A stretch of 32,000 nucleotides of DNA from Candidatus Saccharimonas aalborgensis (GTDB taxonomy: Bacteria; Patescibacteriota; Saccharimonadia; Saccharimonadales; Saccharimonadaceae): NCBI RefSeq assembly GCF_000392435.1, contig NC_021219.1:870001-902000 (forward strand), in the 5' to 3' direction. The notes under the pieces were generated by a model. The model made no database searches. It saw only the letters and a program-made list of their open reading frames with translations, and was not told the DNA's origin. Both the position numbers and the translations under genes were made by a program. Of the stretch, positions 3,425 to 27,252 are shown piece by piece (position 1 is the stretch's first letter; every line of letters begins with the position of its first letter).

Positions 3425-3468
3425 GTGACCCCGCCCCCAGAGCGTCGAGGCTCCGGAGACGGGGTCAC
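3425..3468 (-). terminator. GC-rich hairpin overlapping the stop codon of the small GC-rich ORF
   Basis: GTGACCCCG (3425-3433) pairs with CGGGGTCAC (3460-3468), a 9-bp perfect stem. There is no U-tract. Confidence 0.35.
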
Positions 3469-3638
3469 TTGCGGCCGAGCAGGTGGTCGAACAGCGTGAT
3501 GATCGCCTCTGCGATCGACACGAGCGCCGACCAGATGCTCTTGATGATGTCCGCCGCCATCGCGGGATTCTTGATGACGACATACACCCCAAACGCGATA
3601 ACCAACCACTTGATGGCAACCACTGCGCCTTTGGGCAC
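3465..3638 (-). CDS. Small hydrophobic (membrane) protein, 57 aa, GC-rich segment 2
   Basis: In-frame GTG at 3638 lies 8 nt after GGGAGG. Product is VPKGAVVAIKWLVIAFGVYVVIKNPAMAADIIKSIWSALVSIAEAIITLFDHLLGRK. Third codon positions are strongly G/C. The track ORF 3465..3704 extends upstream through the promoter, which is unlikely. Confidence 0.5.
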   Translation of the reverse strand: MPKGAVVAIKWLVIAFGVYVVIKNPAMAADIIKSIWSALVSIAEAIITLFDHLLGRK

Positions 3639-3704: not shown

Positions 3705-3718
3705 ATAGAGACTTAAAT

Positions 3719-3828
3719 CTCACCCCCTCCCCACTCCAGACAACCGGCCCGCCGCTAACTAAATCAGCCTTCGCTCTTGGCGGGCCTTGGCCCATAAGGG
3801 CCAACTGTCTGTCGGAGGAGGGGGTGAG
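3719..3828 (+). repeat. Structured palindromic intergenic repeat, copy 1 (about 110 bp)
   Basis: CTCACCCCCTCCCCACTCCAGACAACCGGCCCGCC...GGCGGGCCTTGGCCCATAAGGGCCAACTGTCTGTCGGAGGAGGGGGTGAG. The terminal 12-nt arms are perfectly complementary, and there is an inner hairpin TTGGCCC-ATAA-GGGCCAA. It is nearly identical to 20960-21067 and to the reverse complement of 18915-19030. Confidence 0.85.
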
Positions 3829-3877
3829 ATCCAAGTAAGGCCATCTCAGACCTAGTGTGGTTGCAATAGCGAAGTAA

Positions 3878-4360
3878 TTACCGCGCGTGCTTTATTTGGG
3901 CGCTGCTCTCGCGGTCAGCTTGGCGCCGCTTGATTGTTTCGCGTTTGTCCCAACGCTTCTTGCCCTTGCCAAGGGCGATGACAACTTTGATATAGCGGCC
4001 CGAGGTCAGCATTTTTGTGGGGACGATCGTCATGCCAAGTTTTTTGCGAGCGGAGAATAGTTCAATTTGACGTTTGCTTGCCAGTAGTCGCCGGGGTCTC
4101 GTATCAACGCTGTGGGCACCGGGCTTACCTCTCTCGTTGAGCTTCAGACTAAAACTTGCGTTGTTGAGCCATAGGTCTCCGTCTTTGATCGTCACATAGG
4201 CGCCACGGAGTTGGATATGTCCATCACGAGCTGCCCGCACCTCTGGTCCTGTAAGTGATACGCCGGCGACGATATCATCGTCAAGCTCATAATCAAATCG
4301 GGCGCGACGATTGACGATCGGTGCTTTTGGGTGTGATACTGTGGCTTTTTTGGCGCTCAT
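3878..4360 (-). CDS. smpB: SsrA-binding protein
   Basis: Start chosen at MSAKKATVSHPKAPIVNRRARFDYEL... (ATG is rc of 4358-4360). NRRARFDY, GxEVKS-like TGPEVRA, and the basic C-terminal tail KKRWDKRETIKRR are typical SmpB features. Confidence 0.9.
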   Translation of the reverse strand: MSAKKATVSHPKAPIVNRRARFDYELDDDIVAGVSLTGPEVRAARDGHIQLRGAYVTIKDGDLWLNNASFSLKLNERGKPGAHSVDTRPRRLLASKRQIELFSARKKLGMTIVPTKMLTSGRYIKVVIALGKGKKRWDKRETIKRRQADRESSAQIKHAR

Positions 4361-4440: not shown

Positions 4441-4730
4441 TATCAGTGATGTGAGGTACAATATATCTCCCACTGCGAAGATTCCAAACGTGCTTCATGA
4501 CTCTTCTTGCGAGAGAAGCTGCCCTCTCCGATATGGTAGAACTAGCCAGCCGGCATCAAACGATTTGTTTGGTCTCGACTGGCTAGTCCCACCCGGATCC
4601 GGGACAAACCCTTTCGCTTCAAGAGTCGGAGGTTCCGGAACCTTTGACAACTCTCTCAGCGAAAGCAGCTTTACCTGCAGTACCCTCGCGACCACCGTGG
4701 CCGCGAGAACCTTCACGAAGGGAGCCAGCA
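4441..4730 (+). promoter_or_regulatory. Long (about 290 nt) multi-hairpin 5' leader or candidate structured RNA
   Basis: Five consecutive hairpins read by eye. They are 4503-4518 (CTTCT/AGAAG) and 4542-4586 (CTAGCCAG/CTGGCTAG with inner ATCAAAC/GTTTGGT). Then 4586-4605 (GTCCC/GGGAC), 4622-4654 (AGAG+TCGGAGGTT/AACCTTTGA+CTCT) and 4685-4707 (CTCGCG/CGCGAG) just before the SD. No known riboswitch motif was recognised. Confidence 0.3.
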
Positions 4731-5153
4731 ATGGCATTCGGAAACAAGGCCCGCATCGCCGCCCTCGAGGCCCGCAACGCCCAGCTCGAGCAGCTGTTCG
4801 GTCGCGCGGACGTCCGCCTGGACACCTACGGGCCCGAGCTCGCCGGCATCTTCGGTGACACCCCGACGGCTCACAGCGCCGGTCGCTGGACCTCGTCCAC
4901 GACCGTCCGCGACATCTACGGGATCAACGTGTCCAACGTGCCGGGCCGGGAGCAGGTCTCCTTCATGGCGATCAAGCACGCCGGCGCCGTCAAGCCGTTC
5001 GTCGTCTCGCTCCACCCGGGCGAGCACGTCGACTTCGACGCCAACGACTTCGCCGACCTCGAGGAGTGGGTCAACGCGGCCCGCACGGGCCAGACCCTCG
5101 ACCCCAACCGGCACGACCAGCGGGCGGCGAAGATGTTCAGCCTCGTCGGCTGA
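4731..5153 (+). CDS. Hypothetical protein, 140 aa, GC-rich segment 3
   Basis: ATG at 4731 lies 6 nt after GAAGGGAG. Product is MAFGNKARIAALEARNAQLEQLFGRADVRLDTYGPELAGIFGD... Hand-read codons end almost exclusively in G/C. The upstream part of track ORF 4644..5153 lacks an SD. Confidence 0.6.
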   Translation: MAFGNKARIAALEARNAQLEQLFGRADVRLDTYGPELAGIFGDTPTAHSAGRWTSSTTVRDIYGINVSNVPGREQVSFMAIKHAGAVKPFVVSLHPGEHVDFDANDFADLEEWVNAARTGQTLDPNRHDQRAAKMFSLVG

Positions 5154-5355: not shown

Positions 5356-6051
5356 CTAGTCGAGCATGGTCTGGTAGGCCCGCGTGAGCTCGGCGTTGGC
5401 CAGCTCGACGAGCGCCTTGTAATCGGCGACGTCCCGCTCGTGGATGGCCACGAGCTTGGCATTCGCCTGCCGCTCGCGCGTCAGCGCCAGGCGGTCACGC
5501 CGCAGCTGCGCCGTCTGCTCGTCGAGCCAGCGCCCGACGTCCTCGGGTGTCTCGAGCCACTCGGGCAACTCGTCCCACTGGTACTTGCCACGCCGGAACA
5601 GCTTGCGCCACTCGCGCAGCTCGCGAGCGGTCCGGTTGAGCTCGTACTTGTGGTAGTTGAACTGGTGTCCGAGGTCGACGTTGCGTGCTTCGCGGGCGAG
5701 GCGTTCGAGCTCCCTGATGGCCTCCTGGTGCATCTGGAGCAGCTCGCCGAAAGCGACCGCCTGAGCGATCAGCTGGCGGTCGGCCTCGCTGCTGCCGTCG
5801 GCGGCATCGATGCGGATGCGCGCGATGCGGAGCAGCCCGTAGCGGAGCGCCACCTCATGGATGACGCTGCCAATGGCGGCAGCGCGGGGGAAGGCGGGGT
5901 TGAACGTCCCGTTGAAGCGGTAGTCGTTCAAGGCCTTGGCGATGAACCCATCGGGGCGGATCTCGCTGACGTACAGCGTGCTGTACATCGACATCGAGAT
6001 ACCACCGTCGTTCAGTTTGATGACGAACCGTGGCGGGAAGTTCCAACTCAT
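5356..6051 (-). CDS. Hypothetical protein, 231 aa, GC-rich segment 4
   Basis: ATG lies 8 nt after GGAGAGGAGG. The C-terminal half is rich in charged helical sequence (RELERLAREARN..., LRRDRLALTRERQ). No family was recognised by eye. Confidence 0.6.
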   Translation of the reverse strand: MSWNFPPRFVIKLNDGGISMSMYSTLYVSEIRPDGFIAKALNDYRFNGTFNPAFPRAAAIGSVIHEVALRYGLLRIARIRIDAADGSSEADRQLIAQAVAFGELLQMHQEAIRELERLAREARNVDLGHQFNYHKYELNRTARELREWRKLFRRGKYQWDELPEWLETPEDVGRWLDEQTAQLRRDRLALTRERQANAKLVAIHERDVADYKALVELANAELTRAYQTMLD

Positions 6052-10015: not shown

Positions 10016-11926
10016 ATGTCAAGACATATGAACCGCGAGCAAGGCTTTGCGTTGCCAACCGTCGTGATTGTATCGGTCGTTCTTTTTGTGGTAATGCTGG
10101 CGGCGATTTCGTCTGTATCGAGTATTCGTGGCGCACTGTTGGCGCAGTATTATCAGCAACTCGCTCGTGAGGCGGCGGAATCCGGAGCTGAGTTTGCTGC
10201 AAATTGCCTCGATGCTAACTCAAATATCGTGACATGGACCGTAGCAAAACCTCTCAAACCAAATACAGACTGCACCGGAACAGAAGTTGTTGCTTGTACC
10301 TCCATGCCCCATCCTGCAGGGTGCGATGTCAATAGTAGCACAAATATGTATTCAACTTTTTCGGTTGCACCTCCATCGTCAGCGAATCTATTTGACTATA
10401 TTGTCACTGTTACCGCTACGGTAAATCTTGTCAGATCTGGTACGACAACGGTATGGAATAATTATTCGATAGCGATGCGCTACGATCCGGTAAAAAAAAG
10501 TCAGCCCGCATTTCCTAGTGTTCCAACTTTTGGTTCCTCAGGCGTAATATCGGCTTTTAGCGATGGTTACCTCTGGGGCTGGGGGTGTAACGGGTCAAGC
10601 CAGTTTGGTGATGGCACAACGACAAACAAATTGATACCGGGGAGGCTTATCGCCATGAGCGATGTCGTAGACATTGTTTCTGCTGCTATTAACTCGACAT
10701 CGGGCACAGTAACCGCTCTCAAATCTAATGGCTCAGTCTGGGCATGGGGCTACAATGCCGATGGGCAGATCGGCAACGGTACCACTACGACACAATCAAC
10801 TCCGACTCAAGTTATTTCAAGTGGAGTTGTCAAGATATACCCTGTCAAAAGTGCGTCGGGTGTTGTGCACGAAACGGTGTATGCTCTCAAATCTGACGGT
10901 TCGCTATGGGCATGGGGGTATAACGGAAGTGGTCAGGTTGGCAACAATTCCACCACCAATCAGCTCACGCCTGTGCAGATCATCGCTAGCGGGGTAAGCA
11001 AAGTGTATGCGACAGGATATAATGTCTATGTCATCAAATCTGACGGTTCTCTGTGGGCATGGGGAAGTGGGACCAATGGACCGGTTGGCAACAATTCCAC
11101 CACCAATCAGCTCACGCCTGTGCAGATCATCGCTAGCGGGGTAAGCAGCGTCATCACTACATGGTTTGGGGCATACGCAATCAAATCTGACGGTTCGCTA
11201 TGGGCATGGGGGTATAACGGTGCCGGTCAGGTTGGTAACAATTCCACCACCAATCGACTTACACCCGTACAAGTTATAGCCAGTGGGGTATCACAGATGA
11301 TCGCGAGCGCTTCATCTCCCTACCCGGCTCGACTTGTTATCAAAACTGACGGCTCACTCTGGGCATGGGGAAGTAATACATACGGTCAGGTCGGCAACAA
11401 CTCTACCACCAATCAGCTCACTCCCGTACAGATCATGGCGAGCGGAGTGGTTAAAGCATCGGCAAATGACCTGACCACGTTTGCAATCAAATCTGACGGT
11501 TCGCTATGGGCATGGGGGTATAACACAACGTATGGGACGGTCGGCAACAACTCTACCACCAATCGGCTCACTCCCGTACAGATCATGGCGAGCGGAGTGA
11601 CTGCCGCAGGGGCAGATTCCTATAGCGCATACGCTCTCAAATCTGACGGCTCACTCTGGATATGGGGAAATAATAGCAATGGTGTAGTCGGTAATGGCAC
11701 ATTGACAACCCAACTCGTTCCGTATCAGGCAATCAGTAGTGGCGTTACTCAAGTTAATTTTTCGTCGACACTCGTGTATGCCCTAAAATCAGATGGAACT
11801 GCATGGGCGATTAGCAATAATAACACAGCGTGTAATTTGAATGGCACCAATCCTTCCACCTATAATCCGAGAATTCCAGTACAAATTGCGATTCCTCCGA
11901 TCATAATAAAAAGCCGTGCGTATTAA
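10016..11926 (+). CDS. PilX-like (pseudopilin-type) N-terminal anchor fused to an RCC1-repeat beta-propeller protein
   Basis: MSRHMNREQGFALPTVVIVSVVLFVVMLAAISSV is a PilX-type hydrophobic N-terminus. About 9-10 repeats of the form SDGSLWAWGYNGxGQVGNNSTTNQLTPVQI follow (RCC1/ATS1-type WGxNxxGQLG pattern). Start is taken at 10016 rather than the track's 9929. Confidence 0.8.
   Translation: MSRHMNREQGFALPTVVIVSVVLFVVMLAAISSVSSIRGALLAQYYQQLAREAAESGAEFAANCLDANSNIVTWTVAKPLKPNTDCTGTEVVACTSMPHPAGCDVNSSTNMYSTFSVAPPSSANLFDYIVTVTATVNLVRSGTTTVWNNYSIAMRYDPVKKSQPAFPSVPTFGSSGVISAFSDGYLWGWGCNGSSQFGDGTTTNKLIPGRLIAMSDVVDIVSAAINSTSGTVTALKSNGSVWAWGYNADGQIGNGTTTTQSTPTQVISSGVVKIYPVKSASGVVHETVYALKSDGSLWAWGYNGSGQVGNNSTTNQLTPVQIIASGVSKVYATGYNVYVIKSDGSLWAWGSGTNGPVGNNSTTNQLTPVQIIASGVSSVITTWFGAYAIKSDGSLWAWGYNGAGQVGNNSTTNRLTPVQVIASGVSQMIASASSPYPARLVIKTDGSLWAWGSNTYGQVGNNSTTNQLTPVQIMASGVVKASANDLTTFAIKSDGSLWAWGYNTTYGTVGNNSTTNRLTPVQIMASGVTAAGADSYSAYALKSDGSLWIWGNNSNGVVGNGTLTTQLVPYQAISSGVTQVNFSSTLVYALKSDGTAWAISNNNTACNLNGTNPSTYNPRIPVQIAIPPIIIKSRAY
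10936..11147 (+). repeat. Intragenic near-identical DNA repeats within the RCC1 gene
   Basis: A 65-bp stretch GGTTGGCAACAATTCCACCACCAATCAGCTCACGCCTGTGCAGATCATCGCTAGCGGGGTAAGCA is identical at 10936-11000 and 11083-11147. Several further ~35-bp identical blocks (AATCTGACGGTTCGCTATGGGCATGGGGGTATAAC) also occur. Confidence 0.85.
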
Positions 11927-16007: not shown

Positions 16008-16379
16008 ATGACACGTCGCGCTCGCGTCGAATTGGGTTACCGGACAGATTGTGACCTACTATCTAGGCCCGTTGTTCAGGAACAGCTACCATTTGACGTT
16101 ACTGCTGATATAAGACCTGCTCCTGAAGATGACGGTGAATCTTTCGCTTATGATATAAGGCAAATGATTGCCGAAACAGAAGCTCAATTAGCACGAGCAG
16201 AGGTTGATGGGAGAATCGACCGTGCGTGGCGAGGACTTTCGCGGGTTGCTCAATTAAGAATACTGCTCGATGCCGGTATTGATCCCTTTGCAAAATCACC
16301 ACCCCTAAGGATGAGTAGTGATACGGAAGAGGAAGCGCGGTATACACGAGCGCTTCTAGACGAGGCTCGTAATGGCTAG
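16008..16379 (+). CDS. Unknown 123-aa ORF between atpA and atpG
   Basis: It starts 2 nt after the atpA stop and overlaps the atpG start by 8 nt. It uses noticeably more A/T-ending and rare codons (ATA, AGA, AGG, CTA, TTA) than the flanking atp genes. No family was recognised. Confidence 0.45.
   Translation: MTRRARVELGYRTDCDLLSRPVVQEQLPFDVTADIRPAPEDDGESFAYDIRQMIAETEAQLARAEVDGRIDRAWRGLSRVAQLRILLDAGIDPFAKSPPLRMSSDTEEEARYTRALLDEARNG

Positions 16380-17237: not shown

Positions 17238-17238
<1 letters not shown>
16372..17238 (+). CDS. atpG: F1 ATP synthase subunit gamma
   Basis: MASTQQLKSRIRSVKSTKQITKAMQMVAASKMRRAQ at the N-terminus and ...ARQSAITQELAEISGGAEA at the C-terminus. Confidence 0.92.
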
Positions 17239-18903
<1,665 letters not shown>

Positions 18904-18914
18904 AAGCTGTCTAA

Positions 18915-19030
18915 GCCCCAAGACCCTCCTCCGACAGACAGTTGGCCCTGATGGGCCAAGGCCCGCCAAGAGCGAAGGCTGATTCAGTTAGCGGCGGGCC
19001 GGTTGTCTGGAGTGGGGAGGGTGTTGGGGC
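18915..19030 (-). repeat. Structured palindromic intergenic repeat, copy 2 (inverted orientation)
   Basis: The reverse complement matches copies 1 and 3 through the core. The terminal arms are changed on both sides to GCCCCAAGACCCTCC / GGAGGGTGTTGGGGC, which are still complementary apart from one mismatch. It starts 12 nt after the atpD stop. Confidence 0.85.
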
Positions 19031-19046
19031 TTCAGATGAAAGTTCT

Positions 19047-19075
19047 TTGACTTTATACAACAATAGTGATATAAT
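19047..19075 (+). promoter_or_regulatory. Consensus-type promoter TTGACT-17-TATAAT
   Basis: -35 at 19047-19052, exact 17-nt spacer, -10 at 19070-19075. Confidence 0.5.
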
Positions 19076-19139
19076 ATAAGAGACGGCCTGTTTAATCGAA
19101 CGAGCCGACCAACAAGCCTCATGTAAGGAGGTGGTTCGC

Positions 19140-19466
19140 GTGCTCAACCACTGGTTGGCGCGTGTGCTCCCAGGAGGGCGCGAGCCCGGAGATCCCTGGT
19201 GGGTCTTCCGGGACGCAGACGGTCAGGACAACGACTGGTGGCCCCAGTTGGTGTCGCTGGGGTGCTACCCCCTGGTCTTCTTCGTTCTCTTCGGGTGGTG
19301 GGGGGTGCTGCTCGGCCTGGTGGCCGCAGTCGGCACGCTCCTCTACTGGGGAGCACTTCTGAGCGTCGCGGTGCTGGTGATCTACGTCCTGCTGTCCCTG
19401 TTTCTGGGGTGGCTGTGGGCACTGGTCATCGTCGCACTGCTCGTTTGGTGGTTCATCTACCGCTAG
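19140..19466 (+). CDS. Trp-rich multi-TM membrane protein, 108 aa, GC-rich segment 6
   Basis: GTG at 19140 lies 8 nt after AAGGAGG. Product is VLNHWLARVLPGGREPGDPWWVFRDADGQDNDWWPQLVSLGCYPLVFFVLFGWWGVLLGLVAAVGTLLYWGALLSVAVLVIYVLLSLFLGWLWALVIVALLVWWFIYR. Other long ORFs here (19119..19526-, 19144..19422- and others) are alternative frames of GC-rich DNA. Confidence 0.55.
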   Translation: MLNHWLARVLPGGREPGDPWWVFRDADGQDNDWWPQLVSLGCYPLVFFVLFGWWGVLLGLVAAVGTLLYWGALLSVAVLVIYVLLSLFLGWLWALVIVALLVWWFIYR

Positions 19467-19496
19467 ACGAGCAGTGTCGCTGTGTACGCTCACTAG

Positions 19497-19533
19497 GGTG
19501 AGAGTGGCAGCCGATCCCGGCTCCACTCTCGCC
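19497..19533 (+). terminator. GC-rich hairpin after the membrane ORF
   Basis: GGTGAGAGTGG (19497-19507) pairs with CCACTCTCGCC (19523-19533): 11 bp including one G-T pair. Confidence 0.45.
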
Positions 19534-19560
19534 CGCGCAGTACAAGATTTCCTCTTAGCA

Positions 19561-19584
19561 CTCTCGCATCGGGCGAGAGTTTTT
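19561..19584 (+). terminator. Intrinsic terminator directly upstream of atpC
   Basis: CTCTCGC-ATCGG-GCGAGAG followed by TTTTT. Confidence 0.55.
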
Positions 19585-19592
19585 GGTATGAT
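19584..19592 (+). promoter_or_regulatory. Extended -10 TGGTATGAT placed 9 nt before the atpC ATG
   Basis: Read directly. It overlaps the end of the terminator's T-run. Confidence 0.4.
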
Positions 19593-19601
19593 AGAACTAG
19601 T

Positions 19602-20027
19602 ATGGATTTTGAACTAATTACCCTCGGTGGCAGTAAAGTCAACGAGCAAGTGTACGAGGTGATTTTGCCAACGGCAGACGGAGAGATCGCGGTATTCCCT
19701 CACCATGAACCGCTGGTCAGTGTTGCATCGCCAGGTGTGATCGCGGTGCGCCGCGACAAACAGCATAGCGATGACCGCATGGAGTTTTTTGCGGTCAGTG
19801 GCGGCATCATCGAGATCGGCAATAATCGTGTTCGCGTGTTGGTTGATGAAGCTGAGCACGGCGACGATATTGTCGAGGCAGAGACACAGGCCGCACTTGA
19901 CCGAGCGCTTAAGATGCGCGATAGTGCAACAGACCAAGTTGAACTCGAAAAAGCCCATCAGTTGGTTGATCGCCACGCTGTTCGCCTCAAGGTAGCTGAT
20001 CTCCATCGGCGCCGGCGAAAGTTATAG
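19602..20027 (+). CDS. atpC: F1 ATP synthase subunit epsilon
   Basis: 141 aa. The N-terminal beta-sandwich pattern (VILPTADGEIAVFPHHEPLVSVASPGVIAV) plus a C-terminal helical hairpin fit epsilon. It is the last gene of the operon. Confidence 0.88.
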   Translation: MDFELITLGGSKVNEQVYEVILPTADGEIAVFPHHEPLVSVASPGVIAVRRDKQHSDDRMEFFAVSGGIIEIGNNRVRVLVDEAEHGDDIVEAETQAALDRALKMRDSATDQVELEKAHQLVDRHAVRLKVADLHRRRRKL

Positions 20028-20049
20028 GAAAGAAAGAACGGGTGGGACG

Positions 20050-20928
20050 ATGCCTCGGACAGTACATCTCGGGAGATTGAGTGAACGGACTTGGCCAGGG
20101 AGTGTGTCGGCTGACGATGTGTATGTCGATATTGCCACCATTGCGTCATCGCTTGATGAGTATTATGTACCAGTAAATCCAAAGGCAAAGACTCGCTGTA
20201 TCGATGGTCGGCACGATCCGGCGCTCGATGAAGGAATGCTTGGGCCGCAGGTGCCCGGCGGTGCGATCGGAGGAGCTCTTGCCTATCGGCTGGGAGTTGA
20301 TAAGGATGACCTGACACGAGGAACGTTTTATACAGATACCGAGACGATGATCGACTCGTATCTACGACTTGGTCTGGCACCAGGCGGGCACCGTGATAAT
20401 CGTGAGCATGAGCACGGTGTTGGCTGTGGTGCGATTGACGGCATGGATGCAATTCTCGACTGTCTCTTGGACTCGGGCTTGATCGAGGACAACAAACGCT
20501 TAGTCAGAGCGATTCTCGATACGCGCTTTGATCGGGATCGTTACTTGCGGGTGCTTGGTGCGGGCACGGTGCTCGAGAGCCACGCTGATCAATATTTTGC
20601 TGGGCGGGATGAGATATTTACGGTGCTGGAGAAGAAATCTCCCGGTAGTGTGTCAGTGCTCGAGGGGCACCACAATGAAAAATTACTTATCGTTAATTTT
20701 GTCCCAAGCACAACACTTGCATCAAATCGATTTGCGCGAGATCACGGCGGGTTGCAAGCATTCGGTTATGATATATGGCGAAGTAAACAGTTGGCGCGTA
20801 TGCTGTTGCCGCTTGACTCCCAAGATGAGGACCGTGATCGCTTCATTATGGCGCGAGTTATGGTTACGATTGCAACGCTAATGGCGCTTACTGATGGATC
20901 ACAGCAGGTGTTGTTTCGATTGCCTTAA
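20050..20928 (+). CDS. Hypothetical protein, 292 aa, with C-I-D-G-R and H-G-V-G-C-G motifs
   Basis: The ORF has backbone-like composition. Its motifs are reminiscent of beta-carbonic-anhydrase-type metal sites but do not match exactly (see findings). Confidence 0.55.
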   Translation: MPRTVHLGRLSERTWPGSVSADDVYVDIATIASSLDEYYVPVNPKAKTRCIDGRHDPALDEGMLGPQVPGGAIGGALAYRLGVDKDDLTRGTFYTDTETMIDSYLRLGLAPGGHRDNREHEHGVGCGAIDGMDAILDCLLDSGLIEDNKRLVRAILDTRFDRDRYLRVLGAGTVLESHADQYFAGRDEIFTVLEKKSPGSVSVLEGHHNEKLLIVNFVPSTTLASNRFARDHGGLQAFGYDIWRSKQLARMLLPLDSQDEDRDRFIMARVMVTIATLMALTDGSQQVLFRLP

Positions 20929-20959
20929 CAAATGTCGAGCCCCGGACGTTAACCCGACT

Positions 20960-21067
20960 CTCACCCCCTCCCCACTCCAGACAACCGGCCCGCCGCAAAC
21001 TGACTAGCCTTCGCCTTGGCGGGCCTTGGCCCATCAGGGCCAACTGTCTGTCGGAGGAGGGGGTGAG
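20960..21067 (+). repeat. Structured palindromic intergenic repeat, copy 3
   Basis: Arms and stems are the same as copy 1. Differences are confined to the central loop and to one base in the inner hairpin loop (ATCA versus ATAA). It lies between convergent genes (stops at 20928 and 21075). Confidence 0.85.
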
Positions 21068-21074
21068 ATTCAAG

Positions 21075-22094
21075 TTAACATACTTGCCTATCGAGAATAC
21101 TTCTGACCTCTTCAGTTGTCGTGCAATTCATCAATTCTACCCGCAAGTCGCTCGCGCCGTCGAAGTCACGGATGTAGATTTTGAAAAAGCGCTTTAGCGT
21201 TTCGAAGGGTCGGCTAGTCTGTTGGTAGTAGCGGTCGTATTCATCGAGATGAAATCGCAGTAATTCGATAAGTTTATCATGTTGATCACCGCTCGCGTCG
21301 TCGCCTGCGCGCTGCTTGGCAGCTGGTTCTTGACGGTCGAATTCTTGCTTGCTTGGTTTGTCGGTACGGTCACTAAACGCATAGGGATTGGTAAAAATAC
21401 CTCGGCCGATCATGATACCGTCGATGCCATACGTATCATAAAATTCAATACCGTGAACACGATCACGCACATCGCCGTTGATCACAAGAAGTGTATCGGG
21501 TGCTAGTTCATCACGCAGTTTCTTTATCTCTGGGATTAGCTCGAAGTGCGCGGGAACCTTGCTCATCTCTTTTTTTGTGCGCAGGTGGACGGTCAGTACG
21601 GCGATGTCTTGTCTTAGTAAGCCCCCCAGCCATTCGCGCCACTCGTCGACATTACTATAGCCGAGGCGCGTTTTCACACTGACTGGTAGGCCTCCAGACT
21701 TTGCTGCCTTGATGATCGCCCAGGCTTTTTCTGGGGTGCGAATCATCCCGGCACCACCACCGGCTTTGACGGCGGACTGGTCGGGGCATCCCATATTGAT
21801 ATCAATCCCATCGTATCCGAGCTGACGGCAGTACCCACTCATAGCCGCCATGGCTTCGGGATCACTCCCCCATAGTTGAGCAACAATCGGCGATTCGTCG
21901 TCAGTCTTGATTAGTCGACCGCCGATGGCTTTGTCGCCTGCTCGGTACCACCCCATCGCGTTAGTAAACTCAGTAAAAAACACGTCTGGCTGACCCGCAC
22001 GCGTGATAACATGGCGAAATACGACATCTGTCACCGCCTCCATAGGAGCGAGGATGAAAAAAGGTCGAGGAAGGGTGTGCCAAAATGTCGACAT
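21075..22094 (-). CDS. tRNA-dihydrouridine synthase
   Basis: 339 aa. FILAPMEAVTDVVFRHV, DINMGCP, VSVKTRLG and LTVHLRT are Dus-family TIM-barrel motifs. GCTATAAT lies 7 nt before the ATG. Confidence 0.85.
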   Translation of the reverse strand: MSTFWHTLPRPFFILAPMEAVTDVVFRHVITRAGQPDVFFTEFTNAMGWYRAGDKAIGGRLIKTDDESPIVAQLWGSDPEAMAAMSGYCRQLGYDGIDINMGCPDQSAVKAGGGAGMIRTPEKAWAIIKAAKSGGLPVSVKTRLGYSNVDEWREWLGGLLRQDIAVLTVHLRTKKEMSKVPAHFELIPEIKKLRDELAPDTLLVINGDVRDRVHGIEFYDTYGIDGIMIGRGIFTNPYAFSDRTDKPSKQEFDRQEPAAKQRAGDDASGDQHDKLIELLRFHLDEYDRYYQQTSRPFETLKRFFKIYIRDFDGASDLRVELMNCTTTEEVRSILDRQVC

Positions 22095-22188: not shown

Positions 22189-22284
22189 TGGAGCCCCATA
22201 CAGGAATCGAACCTGTGCGTGTGCCGGTGTTGCTGGCATTCCACGACTTGGCAAGCCGCAGCTCTACCACTGAGCTAATGAGGC
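22189..22284 (-). tRNA. tRNA-Gly(GCC)-like gene with encoded CCA and an abnormal 26-nt variable region
   Basis: Hand-folded reverse complement. Acceptor GCCTCAT / ATGGGGC (one G-U pair) and D arm GCTC-AGTGGTA-GAGC. Anticodon arm GCGGC-TTGCCAA-GTCGT (two G-U pairs, anticodon GCC). Variable region GGAATGCCAGCAACACCGGCACACGC (can form TGCCAG/CCGGCA). T arm ACAGG-TTCGATT-CCTGT, discriminator T, then CCA. Confidence 0.7.
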
Positions 22285-25867: not shown

Positions 25868-27252
25868 AGTTGCAGTTCCTTGTAGGCTTTTTGGAGGATG
25901 GTGAGCACTGTTTGATAGTCGATCGTTTGGTCTGAACCAGTTTTGTAAAGGTAGATTATTGTATCGACCACCTCGATTGATACATGTTCGTCAGTATCAT
26001 AGAGATACGCCATAAAGCCAGGATTAAGTAACTCAAACGTGGCTAATCGATCAGCATCAGTTGCATATACATCATAGCGCTTATTGAAGTCGGGCCACTC
26101 AAACTCGTATTTGGTGTAGCCATCAGGAGCACTATTACCAAACAGTTTTTTTGGTTGAATGAGAATACCGCCGTATGATTTTGGAACGGCAAGCTGTGAG
26201 ATGACAATAGGCTTGCTGGACGAACCGTACGCCTTATATGTATAAAACTGTACAAGGTAACTACCCCACTTACCTACGACGTAGTTATTTATATCTGACA
26301 CGCCAAACTTACCTTTACCAAATAGTTTGCCGCGGCTTGGCAAGAATAGCCAACCCATATCAAGATAATAAAACAGTTTATTGTCTGTTGCGAACTTAAC
26401 CATATCGGCACGCTGTGTGCCAATATCAGCCGTGCTTTGGTCGATGCCGTCAACGAGCCAACCAGTATCATTTTTAATGAGTCGCCAGTATTCTGTAAAC
26501 GTCGATGAGTCTTTGTACAGTGTCGACCCAGTGGGAGTGTCAATCAACGTATCTTTAGCCGAGGCTCGAAACAATACTGTACAGACAGTTCCTTCAGCAT
26601 TACTATCGATAACACGCGATGCACGGATGCGGACATTGTCCATTTGATTCACGCGCTGCAAAACAGCGAGAGCTTCGAGTAGCAGGGCGGATTTATCTCC
26701 AAAGGACGGTGTTGTAAGCAAACGGATAGCTGCACTATCGCCTCTACTCCACGCAGACTGATAATCTTGGAATAGTGTTTTAGCCGATGAGAGTACGGTA
26801 GTTGCCTGCTGTGGTCCAACCATCTTTAGTGAACGCCGAGGAATGGGTAACCTAGCCGCTATTTTTGCACCATGAATAATACCTGCCACGGTGCCTATTA
26901 TTACGCTGCTGCCGTACAAGAGTCCTATTGGCCAATAGAGTATCGCACACAAGGTGCTTGCTATACCCGCACCCAAGACTTCAATTTTTATAAGTGTGCG
27001 AGGCTGCACAGACGGGAACCTCTTTTTTAGGTCCCGTAGAAGAATTGCCCCTATTAACGTCGTAAGGACACCTAAAAGAACTGTTGTGGCGAGCATTGAT
27101 ACGAACGGATCAAGAGGATCGCCGCTGCCCGAAGATCCGCTACTATGGCCTCCGCCACCTCCACCGCCACCTCCACCTCCGCCGCCACCGCCGGACCCAC
27201 CACCGCCACCGCGGCCAAAATCTCTGAGGAGTGATTCGAGGAGAGATATCAT
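25864..27252 (-). CDS. Membrane protein: poly-Gly N-terminus, TM segments, Tim44-like middle region, conserved C-terminal domain (paralog B)
   Basis: 462 aa. N-terminus is MISLLESLLRDFGRGGGGGSGGGGGGGGGGGGGGGHSSGSSGSG. The middle has FTEYWRLIKNDTGWLVDGIDQ, the pattern seen in Tim44-like domains. The C-terminal part (...YTKYEFEWPDFNKRYDVYATDADRLATFELLNPGFMAYLYDTD...) is nearly identical to the upstream paralog. Confidence 0.7.
   Translation of the reverse strand: MISLLESLLRDFGRGGGGGSGGGGGGGGGGGGGGGHSSGSSGSGDPLDPFVSMLATTVLLGVLTTLIGAILLRDLKKRFPSVQPRTLIKIEVLGAGIASTLCAILYWPIGLLYGSSVIIGTVAGIIHGAKIAARLPIPRRSLKMVGPQQATTVLSSAKTLFQDYQSAWSRGDSAAIRLLTTPSFGDKSALLLEALAVLQRVNQMDNVRIRASRVIDSNAEGTVCTVLFRASAKDTLIDTPTGSTLYKDSSTFTEYWRLIKNDTGWLVDGIDQSTADIGTQRADMVKFATDNKLFYYLDMGWLFLPSRGKLFGKGKFGVSDINNYVVGKWGSYLVQFYTYKAYGSSSKPIVISQLAVPKSYGGILIQPKKLFGNSAPDGYTKYEFEWPDFNKRYDVYATDADRLATFELLNPGFMAYLYDTDEHVSIEVVDTIIYLYKTGSDQTIDYQTVLTILQKAYKELQL

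What the first reader, a model, noticed from the sequence alone, without database searches (positions are those of the whole stretch)
18904..19601. ATP synthase operon split between beta and epsilon by a self-contained GC-rich membrane-protein cassette (instance B of the module)
atpD and atpC are normally adjacent and co-transcribed. Here about 700 bp separate them. The interval contains repeat copy 2 and a TTGACT-17-TATAAT promoter. It also holds a 108-aa Trp-rich multi-TM ORF of very different composition, then two terminators (19497-19533 and 19561-19584). A separate TGGTATGAT box lies 9 nt before the atpC ATG. Epsilon would therefore need its own, apparently near-leaderless, transcript. 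A strongly promoted foreign membrane protein is placed inside the most conserved bioenergetic operon.
Basis: partly seen in the sequence, partly recalled or inferred. Interest (0 to 1): 0.7.

Follow-up and report, generated by a model that had tools for sequence, protein, structure and literature searches.

The report
Small membrane gene splits atp operon
In this Saccharibacteria genome a small membrane-protein gene with its own on and off signals separates the last ATP-synthase gene (epsilon) from the rest of its operon, and this layout is old and shared by many related lineages rather than a fresh foreign insertion.

Summary
In Candidatus Saccharimonas aalborgensis, 698 nt separate atpD from atpC. 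The gap holds a hairpin repeat, a near-consensus promoter, a leader with a strong ribosome-binding site, and a 108-aa Trp-rich membrane ORF (GC3 0.84 versus about 0.55 nearby). After the ORF come a hairpin, an intrinsic terminator and a TGGTATGAT box 9 nt before the atpC ATG.

- **Real gene, real junction.** The junction is identical in three closed genomes. The ORF is under purifying selection (pN/pS 0.18).
- **Not a recent import.** At least 12 Saccharimonadaceae lineages share the same layout: promoter, then a 100-115-aa (mostly 100-109) membrane ORF, then a terminator, then TGnTAnnnT, 6-9 nt and ATG. Other relatives have the classical layout, with a 1-10 nt gap and a ribosome-binding site inside atpD.
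- **Variable ORFs.** The ORFs fall into at least 7 sequence groups that cannot be aligned with each other. No homologue exists outside each lineage.
- **Leaderless atpC.** This is supported by conservation and by the same layout at other first genes in the window.
- **Repeat is separate.** It is a species-specific palindromic element inserted later, not part of the cassette.

The protein's function is unknown. No transcript data were available.

The parts
17527..18903 (+). atpD (F1 beta). Its last codons read GAGAAAAAAGACTAA, which lacks the AAGGA ribosome-binding motif that relatives with the coupled layout keep at this position.
18914..19034 (+). Hairpin repeat, copy B. It is a species-specific palindromic element of about 125 nt with a three-way junction. 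It was inserted secondarily between the atpD stop codon and the cassette promoter.
19047..19075 (+). Cassette promoter TTGACT-17-TATAAT with a TG extension (GTGATATAAT).
   Evidence: It is conserved in strains and in other split lineages.
19082..19139 (+). Predicted leader of about 58 nt. It has a hairpin near the 5' end (19084-19107) and the ribosome-binding site AAGGAGGTG (19125-19133).
   Evidence: The other split lineages show analogous leaders with a 5' hairpin. The transcription start site is inferred, not measured.
19140..19466 (+). 108-aa Trp-rich small membrane protein. It has an acidic N-terminus of about 35 aa and then about 70 hydrophobic residues. GC3 is 0.84.
19496..19534 (+). 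Very stable GC-rich hairpin without a U-tract, either a 3'-end stabiliser or a non-canonical terminator.
   Evidence: L028 has an equivalent first hairpin.
19560..19584 (+). Intrinsic terminator with an 8-bp stem followed by TTTTT.
   Evidence: A hairpin plus T-run is conserved in the split lineages.
19584..19592 (+). Extended -10 box TGGTATGAT, the atpC promoter. Nine nucleotides separate it from the ATG and there is no Shine-Dalgarno sequence.
   Evidence: There are 0 differences across 19536-19601 between strains.
19602..20027 (+). atpC (F1 epsilon), predicted to be expressed from a leaderless or near-leaderless mRNA.
3711..3836 (-). Hairpin repeat, copy A, just after the smpB stop codon. 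A separate cassette follows it: a promoter (3704-3676), a 56-aa hydrophobic ORF with GC3 0.84 (3635-3465) and a terminator (3408-3392).
20948..21079 (-). Hairpin repeat, copy C, at the stop codon of the dus gene. It has no cassette.

Best explanation
**What it is.** The atpD-atpC interval holds an autonomous, single-gene transcription unit nested at the beta|epsilon junction of the atp operon. It is an old feature of Saccharimonadaceae that has been kept in some lineages and not others. It is not a recent foreign insertion.

**How it most likely works.**
- A strong sigma-70-type promoter with an extended -10 box starts a leader of about 58 nt. The leader has a hairpin near its 5' end and a consensus ribosome-binding site.
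- This mRNA encodes a 108-aa integral membrane protein with an acidic N-terminus and two or three transmembrane helices.
- A stable hairpin and an intrinsic terminator end this transcript. They also end any read-through from atpD.
- atpC is then re-expressed from an extended -10 promoter fused to the terminator's T-run. Transcription would begin at the ATG or 1-3 nt before it, giving a leaderless mRNA. This is the usual form for first genes in this genome.
- The net effect is that epsilon synthesis is uncoupled from the synthesis of alpha, gamma and beta.

**The protein.** It is real and under selection, but only its size, architecture and expression signals are conserved, not its sequence. 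My best guess is a generic membrane role not tied to the conserved F1Fo surfaces.

**The repeat.** The hairpin repeat is an unrelated palindromic element specific to this species (MITE/REP-like). It landed between the atpD stop codon and the promoter.

**Shown versus inferred.** Shown: the anatomy, coding selection, conservation of the regulatory frame, and distribution among relatives. Inferred: transcription start sites, terminator efficiency, leaderless translation, and the protein's function.
For: **Organism and reality of the junction**
- The organism and junction are confirmed in three closed genomes.

**The ORF is a real coding gene**
- Against divergent strains there are 19.5 synonymous and 10.5 non-synonymous changes (pN/pS 0.18, binomial P 2.5e-6) and 16.5 versus 8.5 (P 1.2e-5).
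- pS of the ORF (0.21) is similar to that of atpD (0.16) and atpC (0.32).

**The signals are constrained**
- The promoter plus leader differ by 3-5.5% between strains.
- The 66 nt before atpC show 0 differences in two strain comparisons, although synonymous sites differ by about 20%.

**Survey of relatives**
- In 80 metagenome loci plus genome contexts, the junction has two forms.
- The coupled form has a 1-10 nt gap and atpD ends in GAGAAGAAGGACTAG.
- The split form has a promoter right after the atpD stop, a 100-115-aa (mostly 100-109) membrane ORF, hairpin(s) with a T-run, then TGCTAT(A/G/C)(A/G)T, 6-9 nt and ATG. It occurs in 12 or more lineages.
- Leaders share the same grammar of 5' hairpin and ribosome-binding site.
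- L028 has the whole cassette without the repeat.

**Leaderless layout elsewhere in the window**
- It precedes the genes starting at 902 and 2528, and smpB, dus and others.

**ORF relationships**
- hhalign gives weak similarity (probability 59%, E 9e-5) between the window family and the L028/L033/L035/L037 family over the WW-x-P start of the first transmembrane helix.
- AlphaFold2 predicts an N-terminal helix and two long transmembrane helices (pLDDT 68.6).

**The repeat is separate**
- It was found only in this species, with 13 hits in the GTDB representative genome (a MAG) and 0 in IMG/VR.
- Most copies sit directly 3' of stop codons and have no cassette.
- Nine base pairs covary.
Against: - No transcript data were available, so the start sites, terminator efficiency and leaderless translation rest on sequence and conservation only.
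- The ORFs of different split lineages are not significantly alike: BLASTP gives E = 1, and a profile of the L028 group scores the window ORF no better than shuffled sequences. Common descent of the ORFs themselves is therefore inferred from slot, size, architecture and flanking signals, plus one weak hhalign match.
- Split and coupled forms are interspersed on the AtpC tree. This needs several losses, gains or recombination events. The tree rests on only 141 residues.
- GC3 of the ORF exceeds that of its neighbours in most carriers. Simple vertical descent does not explain this.
Confidence: 0.65

Rival explanations
1. Recent horizontal acquisition. On this reading a foreign, GC-rich gene cassette, perhaps carried or targeted by the hairpin repeat, was inserted into the operon of this species.
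For: - GC3 is 0.84, against about 0.55 for neighbouring genes. The ORF belongs to a discrete high-GC3 class of four orphan genes in the window.
- It has no homologues outside the species.
- Its distribution among relatives is patchy.
- Repeat copies lie next to GC-rich segments more often than random positions do: 6 of 15 loci against 15% expected, P about 0.02.
Against: - The same slot, regulatory frame and ORF size occur in 12 or more lineages, down to about 68% AtpC identity, and without the repeat.
- pS of the ORF equals that of the flanking atp genes between strains.
- No donor was found among 1.84 billion representative proteins, in phage genomes or in IMG/VR.
- No integrase or transposase gene lies nearby.
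- The repeat lies in opposite orientations at this site in two strains.
Confidence: 0.12
2. Lineage-specific ATP-synthase accessory protein. On this reading the membrane protein is an Fo-associated assembly or regulatory factor, working like AtpI, AtpZ or AtpR, and keeps its position for that reason.
For: - It lies inside the atp operon in many lineages and has a constant size of 100-115 aa (mostly 100-109) with a membrane architecture.
- The operon also carries other lineage-specific ORFs, of 123 aa and 99 aa.
- The delta subunit is short, at 127 aa.
Against: - It has its own strong promoter and terminator instead of translational coupling.
- The ORFs at this position form at least 7 sequence groups that cannot be aligned, whereas the F1Fo subunits are more than 80% conserved.
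- It is absent from close relatives.
- It has no match to Pfam, NCBIfam or PDB folds.
- An AtpZ-like gene (PF09527) is already present upstream of atpB.
- In one strain a premature stop removes the last 5 residues.
Confidence: 0.15
3. Exchangeable hypervariable slot. On this reading conserved flanks (promoter and leader on one side, terminator and atpC start on the other) frame an ORF that is repeatedly replaced or evolves very fast. It could be an immunity, exclusion or surface-interaction protein in an arms race, spreading by recombination through the atpD and atpC flanks.
For: - At least 7 unrelated sequence groups occupy one slot.
- The AtpC proteins of L028 and L042 lie far apart on the tree, yet the two loci share an identical 23-nt stretch of promoter and early leader while their ORFs cannot be aligned.
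- The GC3 excess recurs across carriers.
- Split and coupled forms are interspersed on the tree.
Against: - Selection within the species is purifying, not diversifying (pN/pS 0.18-0.44).
- The weak hhalign match suggests divergence rather than replacement.
- No pool of free cassettes was found. The promoter motif is absent from IMG/VR, and each ORF family occurs only at this locus.
Confidence: 0.12
4. Type I toxin-antitoxin or other small-toxin locus.
For: It is a small hydrophobic ORF with a strong promoter and terminators.
Against: - No antisense promoter was found in 18500-20100.
- At 108 aa with two or three transmembrane helices, it is larger than typical type I toxins.
- It is conserved in synteny over long evolutionary distances.
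- It has no PHROG hit; PADLOC was not run.
Confidence: 0.03
5. Spurious ORF in GC-rich non-coding DNA, or an assembly artefact.
For: GC-rich DNA gives long ORFs in several frames, and overlapping ORFs are seen here.
Against: - GC by codon position in this frame is 0.68, 0.41 and 0.84. Synonymous changes strongly outnumber non-synonymous ones (P about 1e-5 to 1e-6).
- A consensus ribosome-binding site precedes the ORF.
- The junction is identical in three closed genomes.
Confidence: 0.02

Closest known systems
Small hydrophobic proteins encoded in atp operons: AtpI/UncI, AtpZ (Pfam PF09527 ATPase_gene1), and AtpQ/AtpR of N-type ATPases
   Same: They are small membrane proteins encoded inside an F-type ATPase gene cluster.
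   Different: - Those genes sit upstream of atpB, or after atpC in N-ATPases, and are co-transcribed with the operon.
- This gene sits between beta and epsilon and has its own promoter and terminator.
- It has no sequence match.
- The genome already has an AtpZ-like gene upstream of atpB.
Leaderless mRNAs as described in Actinobacteria, Deinococcus and archaea (from general knowledge)
   Same: The -10 box lies 6-9 nt before the start codon, there is no Shine-Dalgarno sequence, and an ATG sits at or next to the 5' end.
   Different: - This is inferred for a Saccharibacterium. My two literature searches on this point found nothing.
- The promoter is fused to the T-run of the preceding terminator.
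- It restarts the last gene of an otherwise coupled operon.
Split atp gene clusters, such as atp1/atp2 in cyanobacteria and chloroplasts, or separate F1 and Fo operons in some alpha-proteobacteria (from general knowledge)
   Same: The ATP-synthase genes are not all expressed from one transcript.
   Different: In those cases beta and epsilon stay together. Here epsilon alone is cut off, by a nested unrelated gene. Split and coupled forms also coexist among close relatives.
Palindromic intergenic repeats: REP/BIME, Correia, ERIC and other miniature inverted-repeat elements (for the hairpin repeat only)
   Same: The repeat is about 125-135 nt, has terminal inverted repeats, occurs in many intergenic copies in both orientations, and has no coding capacity.
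   Different: - Its core is a conserved three-way junction and its outer stem is variable but compensated.
- It is restricted to one species.
- I saw no target-site duplication and no transposase.
- Most copies lie directly 3' of a stop codon.
Integron gene cassettes
   Same: A short ORF lies next to an imperfect palindromic repeat.
   Different: - There is no integrase and no array.
- The cassette has its own promoter.
- The repeat is absent from the same cassette in other species.
- The repeat has a conserved centre and variable ends, the reverse of attC sites.

Membership tests
AtpI / AtpZ / AtpR small atp-operon membrane proteins | Sequence match to the family profile (for example PF09527 or PF03899) | tested here: not met
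   Pfam and NCBIfam scans gave no hit at E <= 0.1. PF09527 does match a different gene, upstream of atpB.
AtpI / AtpZ / AtpR small atp-operon membrane proteins | Position upstream of atpB and co-transcription with the operon | tested here: not met
   The gene lies between atpD and atpC and has its own promoter and terminator.
Leaderless-mRNA gene (atpC) | A -10 box about 6-9 nt upstream of the start codon and no Shine-Dalgarno sequence | tested here: met
   TGGTATGAT, then 9 nt, then ATG. The box is conserved in 12 or more split lineages. The same layout occurs at other genes in the window.
Leaderless-mRNA gene (atpC) | Mapped 5' end at the start codon | not testable with these tools
   No transcript data were available.
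Intrinsic (Rho-independent) terminator | GC-rich stem-loop followed by a U-tract | tested here: met
   The structure at 19560-19580 followed by TTTTT meets this. The hairpin at 19496-19534 has no U-tract and does not.
Recently acquired genomic islet (horizontal transfer) | Atypical composition | tested here: met
   GC3 is 0.84, against 0.31-0.59 for all but three other genes in the window.
Recently acquired genomic islet (horizontal transfer) | Absent from related genomes at this site, and a donor homologue is identifiable | tested here: not met
   An equivalent cassette is present in 12 or more related lineages. No homologue was found outside the species.
Type I toxin-antitoxin | Overlapping or adjacent antisense RNA gene, and a toxin usually shorter than 60 aa | tested here: not met
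   No minus-strand promoter was found in 18500-20100, and the ORF is 108 aa.
Integron cassette | An attC site at the 3' end of a promoterless ORF, with an integrase and attI nearby | tested here: not met
   The repeat lies 5' of the promoter. The cassette has its own promoter. No integrase gene lies within 10 kb on either side.
MITE / REP-like palindromic repeat (the hairpin repeat) | Multiple short non-coding copies with terminal inverted repeats in intergenic DNA | tested here: met
   There are 3 copies in the window and 13 in the GTDB representative genome. The outer stems pair, and nine pairs show compensatory changes.
MITE / REP-like palindromic repeat (the hairpin repeat) | Target-site duplication and a cognate transposase (or RAYT) in the genome | tested here: inconclusive
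   I saw no consistent duplication in the flanks. The whole genome was not searched for a transposase.

The most novel reading that the evidence does not exclude
The beta|epsilon junction of Saccharimonadaceae may be a dedicated expression slot. It has a conserved promoter and leader on one side and a terminator with a leaderless atpC restart on the other. Its 100-115-aa, GC3-rich membrane protein would be either repeatedly exchanged or driven to diverge. On this reading the protein is a fast-evolving membrane factor, such as an immunity, exclusion or host-contact protein, or a modulator of the ATPase. Its presence would also uncouple epsilon dosage from the rest of F1. In S. aalborgensis it would be one of a wider set of GC3-rich orphan cassettes with the same grammar, several of them next to the hairpin repeat.
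Probability: 0.12. Interest if true: 0.7.

Novelty: new variant of a known kind. Interest (0 to 1): 0.45.

Why it matters
- **A natural comparison.** Saccharibacteria are reduced epibionts whose energy budget depends on F1Fo. Close relatives carry two alternative junctions, coupled and split. This makes a natural experiment on whether epsilon, the subunit that couples F1 to Fo and limits ATP hydrolysis, needs to be made in step with beta.
- **Promoter and translation grammar.** The data give sequence-level evidence that leaderless mRNAs with extended -10 promoters are common in this group. That matters for gene calling and for the genetic tools now being developed for Saccharibacteria.
- **A family missed by sequence searches.** The slot defines a set of small membrane proteins that sequence searches miss, because only size, architecture and context are conserved.
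- **Limits.** The arrangement is a variation on known themes (a gene nested in an operon, an internal promoter, an orphan membrane protein), and the protein's function remains unknown.

Tried and rejected
**Searches that found nothing**
- Pfam, NCBIfam and PHROG scans of the ORF, of ORF A and of the L028 ORF (ORF A = the instance-A ORF at 3465-3635) gave no hits.
- The word-indexed protein search found only the ORF's own 90% cluster.
- The exhaustive HMMER search of 1.84 billion representatives found only its own family plus a 53-aa fragment.
- tblastn against 50,697 phage genomes gave nothing for the ORF or for the GC-rich 231-aa neighbour.
- Rfam gave nothing for the repeat or the interval. 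The only weak match was a meaningless XIST hit at E 0.12.
- The AlphaFold2 model was only moderately confident (pLDDT 68.6), and Foldseek against the PDB gave no match.
- The repeat core and the L028/L042 promoter motif are absent from IMG/VR.
- Four literature searches found no description of this arrangement.

**Ideas considered and rejected**
- A profile of the L028/L033/L037 ORFs does not score the window ORF above shuffled sequences, so I do not claim sequence homology between groups. I cite only the weak hhalign match.
- An ORF on the opposite strand (19119-19526, minus) is rejected because the codon-position GC pattern and the substitution pattern fit the plus frame.
- A start at 19131 is rejected because it lies inside the ribosome-binding site.
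- I found no convincing pairing between the conserved spacer at 19536-19559 and the ribosome-binding site.

**Left unresolved**
- The upstream gene in the L007/L012 variant could not be traced because the contigs are too short.
Full report
**1. What is there**

The window comes from Candidatus Saccharimonas aalborgensis, a Saccharibacterium (TM7) with a genome of about 1 Mb. The ORF and AtpC occur with exactly these sequences in records of that name. The 20 kb around them is 97.8-99.7% identical in three closed genomes: CP065015, CP064959 and CP065017.

The atp cluster reads as follows: AtpZ-like gene, a, c, b, delta, alpha, a 123-aa ORF, gamma, a 99-aa ORF, beta, then the interval under study, then epsilon. 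atpD ends at 18903 and atpC starts at 19602, so 698 nt separate them.

Read from left to right, the interval contains these features:

| Feature | Coordinates | Evidence |
|---|---|---|
| Hairpin repeat (three-way junction, -87 kcal/mol, z -7.3) | about 18914-19034 | |
| Promoter TTGACT-17-TATAAT, 11 of 12 matches, TG extension | 19047-19075 | |
| Predicted leader, about 58 nt, with a hairpin near its 5' end | 19082-19139 | |
| Ribosome-binding site AAGGAGGTG | 19125-19133 | |
| ORF, starting at GTG | 19140-19466 | |
| Very stable hairpin without a U-tract | 19496-19534 | |
| Canonical intrinsic terminator plus TTTTT | 19560-19584 | |
| TGGTATGAT box | 19584-19592 | |
| Nine nucleotides with no ribosome-binding site, then the atpC ATG | 19593-19602 | |

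The first "terminator" is only a hairpin. The 111-aa reading listed by the ORF tool would start inside the ribosome-binding site, so 108 aa is correct.

**2. The ORF is a real gene**

- GC by codon position is 0.68, 0.41 and 0.84, which is the pattern expected of coding sequence in this frame.
- Against divergent strain variants there are 19.5 synonymous and 10.5 non-synonymous changes (L007) and 16.5 versus 8.5 (L008). This gives pN/pS 0.18. Under neutrality about three quarters of changes should be non-synonymous, so the binomial P values are 2.5e-6 and 1.2e-5.
- Its synonymous divergence (0.21) is in line with atpD (0.16) and atpC (0.32). It has therefore shared their history within the species.
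- Its pN/pS is more than ten times that of the atp genes (about 0.01), so constraint on the protein sequence is much weaker than on the atp genes.
- One strain carries a stop codon that removes the last five residues.
- The protein has 12 Trp in 108 residues, an acidic N-terminus of about 35 residues, and about 70 hydrophobic residues.
- AlphaFold2 gives a moderate-confidence model (pLDDT 68.6) with an N-terminal helix and two long transmembrane helices.

**3. It has no recognisable relatives**

- Pfam, NCBIfam and PHROGs give no hit.
- The indexed search of 5.8 billion proteins and the exhaustive HMMER search of 1.84 billion representatives find only its own cluster.
- Phage genomes and the PDB give nothing.

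**4. Relatives change the interpretation**

I looked at the junction in genome contexts of AtpC homologues and in 80 metagenome loci. The atpD-atpC gap has two forms.

*Coupled form.* The gap is 1-10 nt and atpD ends in GAGAAGAAGGACTAG. This places an AAGGA ribosome-binding motif in front of the atpC ATG. It is the classical translationally coupled layout.

*Split form.* This occurs in at least 12 distinct lineages with AtpC identity to the window between 68% and 100%: the window, L028, L033, L035, L037, L039, L042, L097, the L044 group, L101, L102 and L103. Its order is:
- a promoter of the type TTGnnn-17-(TG)nTATAAT. Where the atpD end is on the contig it follows the stop within 0-52 nt in most lineages; in the L044 group and L102 the gap is 0.9-2 kb and the promoter is not adjacent;
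- a leader that begins with a hairpin and ends with a ribosome-binding site;
- an ORF of 100-115 codons, most of them 100-109, with a polar N-terminus and a hydrophobic body;
- one or two hairpins with a T-run;
- then TGCTAT(A/G/C)(A/G)T, 6-9 nt and ATG.

L028 shows the complete cassette with no repeat at all. The cassette is therefore not specific to this species, and the repeat is not part of it.

*The ORFs in the slot.* They fall into at least seven BLAST-unlinked groups.
- The window ORF against the L028 ORF gives E = 1.
- A profile of the L028 group does not score the window ORF above shuffled sequences.
- Profile-profile comparison gives only a weak match (probability 59%, E 9e-5). It covers the [D/T]-W-W-x-x-P start of the first transmembrane helix and the W-G turn.

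I conclude that the ORFs probably share an origin and have diverged very fast. I mark this as inference.

*Distribution.* Split and coupled forms are interspersed on a neighbour-joining tree of AtpC. This points to several losses, gains or allele exchanges. The 141-residue tree is too short to decide which.

**5. Expression logic**

The regulatory parts are more conserved than synonymous sites.
- Between strains with pS of about 0.2, the promoter and leader differ by 3-5.5%.
- The 66 nt that hold the terminator and the atpC -10 box show no difference in two comparisons.

The layout of an extended -10 box, 6-9 nt, then ATG with no ribosome-binding site also precedes other first genes in the window. 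These are the genes starting at 902 and 2528, smpB, dus, and the genes ending at about 28607, 29842 and 31168 on the minus strand.

Leaderless or near-leaderless transcripts therefore seem to be the normal form for promoter-proximal genes in this organism, and atpC has that form. The atpD end in the window (GAGAAAAAAGACTAA) has lost the AAGGA motif that coupled relatives keep.

The most likely mechanism is as follows. Transcription from atpD and from the cassette promoter stops at the hairpin and terminator. atpC then restarts from its own extended -10 promoter as a leaderless mRNA. Epsilon synthesis is thereby uncoupled from beta. The start sites, terminator efficiency and mode of translation are inferred. 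No transcript data were available.

**6. Composition**

- Only four genes in the window have GC3 of at least 0.84: this ORF, the 56-aa ORF of instance A, and two orphans at 4644-5153 and 5356-6051. All other genes have 0.31-0.59, including the membrane protein atpB at 0.53.
- ORFs at this position exceed their atpD and atpC neighbours in GC3 in most split lineages, by +0.15 to +0.5. The L044 group is the exception.
- A recent import from a high-GC donor would explain the window alone. It does not explain why the excess persists across lineages whose ORFs have diverged beyond recognition.
- Either high GC3 is maintained by selection, or ORFs are replaced from a GC-rich pool. I could not tell these apart.

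**7. The repeat**

- The core pattern occurs 13 times in the GTDB representative genome of S. aalborgensis (a MAG). It occurs in no other species among 185,579, and not in IMG/VR.
- Copies are about 125-135 nt, with a conserved three-way-junction core and a variable outer stem.
- Pairing in the outer stem is kept by compensatory changes: 9 covarying pairs.
- Most copies lie within 0-20 nt of a stop codon and are co-oriented with that gene. Many also abut the -35 box of the next promoter.
- At the atpD site, the core is in opposite orientations in the window strain and the GTDB strain. It is degenerate in a third variant, which also carries an unrelated upstream gene.
- It behaves like a palindromic intergenic element (REP/MITE-like) that arrived after the cassette.
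- Copies lie near GC-rich segments somewhat more often than random positions do: 6 of 15 loci against 15%, P about 0.02. Two other copies (L017, L022) precede orphan cassettes with the same grammar.

**8. Function**

The protein's role is unknown.

*Against a specific F1Fo partner:*
- it has an independent promoter and terminator;
- its sequence is highly variable, whereas the F1Fo subunits are highly conserved;
- close relatives lack it;
- the genome already has an AtpZ-like gene.

*Against a toxin-antitoxin or integron reading:*
- no antisense promoter was found;
- no integrase gene lies nearby;
- the cassette has its own promoter.

*My best guess.* It is a dispensable, strongly expressed membrane protein whose constraints are size, hydrophobic architecture and expression level. 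The main fixed consequence of its presence is the separate, leaderless expression of epsilon.

**9. Verdict**

- It is partly wrong on the recent foreign insertion and on the repeat as part of the module.
- This is a new variant of known themes and is of moderate interest.

Noticed in passing
window 16008-16379 and 17238-17537: Two further lineage-specific ORFs lie inside the atp operon. One is 123 aa, between atpA and atpG, and is 176 aa in another strain. The other is 99 aa, between atpG and atpD, overlaps both neighbours, and has pN/pS 0.32. Neither has a family match. Relatives carry different ORFs at these positions: a NUDIX gene in L030, ORFs of 156 and 214 aa in L028, and none in L031. 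Every F1 gene junction therefore seems open to insertion in this family.
   Followed up: partly
window 3465-3635 (-), 4644-5153 (+), 5356-6051 (-); also 1-800: The window holds a discrete class of high-GC3 orphan genes (GC3 0.84-0.90, against 0.31-0.59 for all other genes). None has a Pfam, NCBIfam or PHROG match, and the 231-aa ORF (5356-6051), the only one tested against phage genomes, has no match there. They lie on both sides of smpB.
   Followed up: partly
window 3711-3836 (-), 18914-19034 (+), 20948-21079 (-); L014-L024: This is a species-specific palindromic repeat of about 125-135 nt with a conserved three-way-junction core and a variable outer stem that stays paired. It has two loop subtypes. 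There are 13 hits in the GTDB representative genome, none in other species and none in IMG/VR. Most copies lie directly 3' of a stop codon. The core is flipped between strains at the atpD site. It matches no Rfam family.
   Followed up: partly
L017:6612-7100 (+) and L022 downstream of 1090 (-): Other repeat copies are followed by orphan cassettes with the same grammar: consensus promoter, leader, ribosome-binding site, GC-rich ORF of 85 or 96 aa (soluble, not membrane), hairpin and terminator. The association between the repeat and GC-rich segments is 6 of 15 loci against 15% for random positions (P about 0.02).
   Followed up: partly
window gene starts at 902, 2528, 4348 (-), 22094 (-), about 28607 (-), 29842 (-), 31168 (-): Many first genes have a -10 box (often TGnTAnnnT) 6-9 nt before the ATG and no ribosome-binding site. 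This suggests that leaderless mRNAs are common in this Saccharibacterium. It also places the smpB start at 4348, not 4498.
   Followed up: partly
L007:1-500 and L012: In a divergent variant of the cassette (ORF 81-92% identical), the DNA upstream is not atpD. It holds a low-GC gene ending in a hydrophobic tail, then a terminator, then a degenerate inverted repeat copy. The contigs are too short to show where atpD lies.
   Followed up: partly
L044, L045, L070, L073, L078 (atpD-atpC gaps of 900-1170 nt): In one clade the split interval also contains several hundred nucleotides of AT-rich, low-complexity, repetitive DNA upstream of the small membrane ORF. Its length varies between contigs.
   Followed up: no
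window 22189-22284 (-): The tRNA-Gly (GCC) is called at 96 nt, which is longer than a standard tRNA. It may contain an insertion.
   Followed up: no
window 20050-20928 (+): The gene after atpC matches the cadmium carbonic anhydrase repeat family (PF18484, E 6.6e-8). It is absent at this position in several relatives, where a glycosyltransferase or the dus gene follows atpC instead.
   Followed up: no
window 10712-11746 and 27132-27215: There are tandem repeats of 147-159 nt inside the 665-aa RCC1/WD40-like gene. There is also a run of CCACC(G/T)CC-type repeats (reading as Pro or Gly runs) at the overlap of two large minus-strand ORFs.
   Followed up: no
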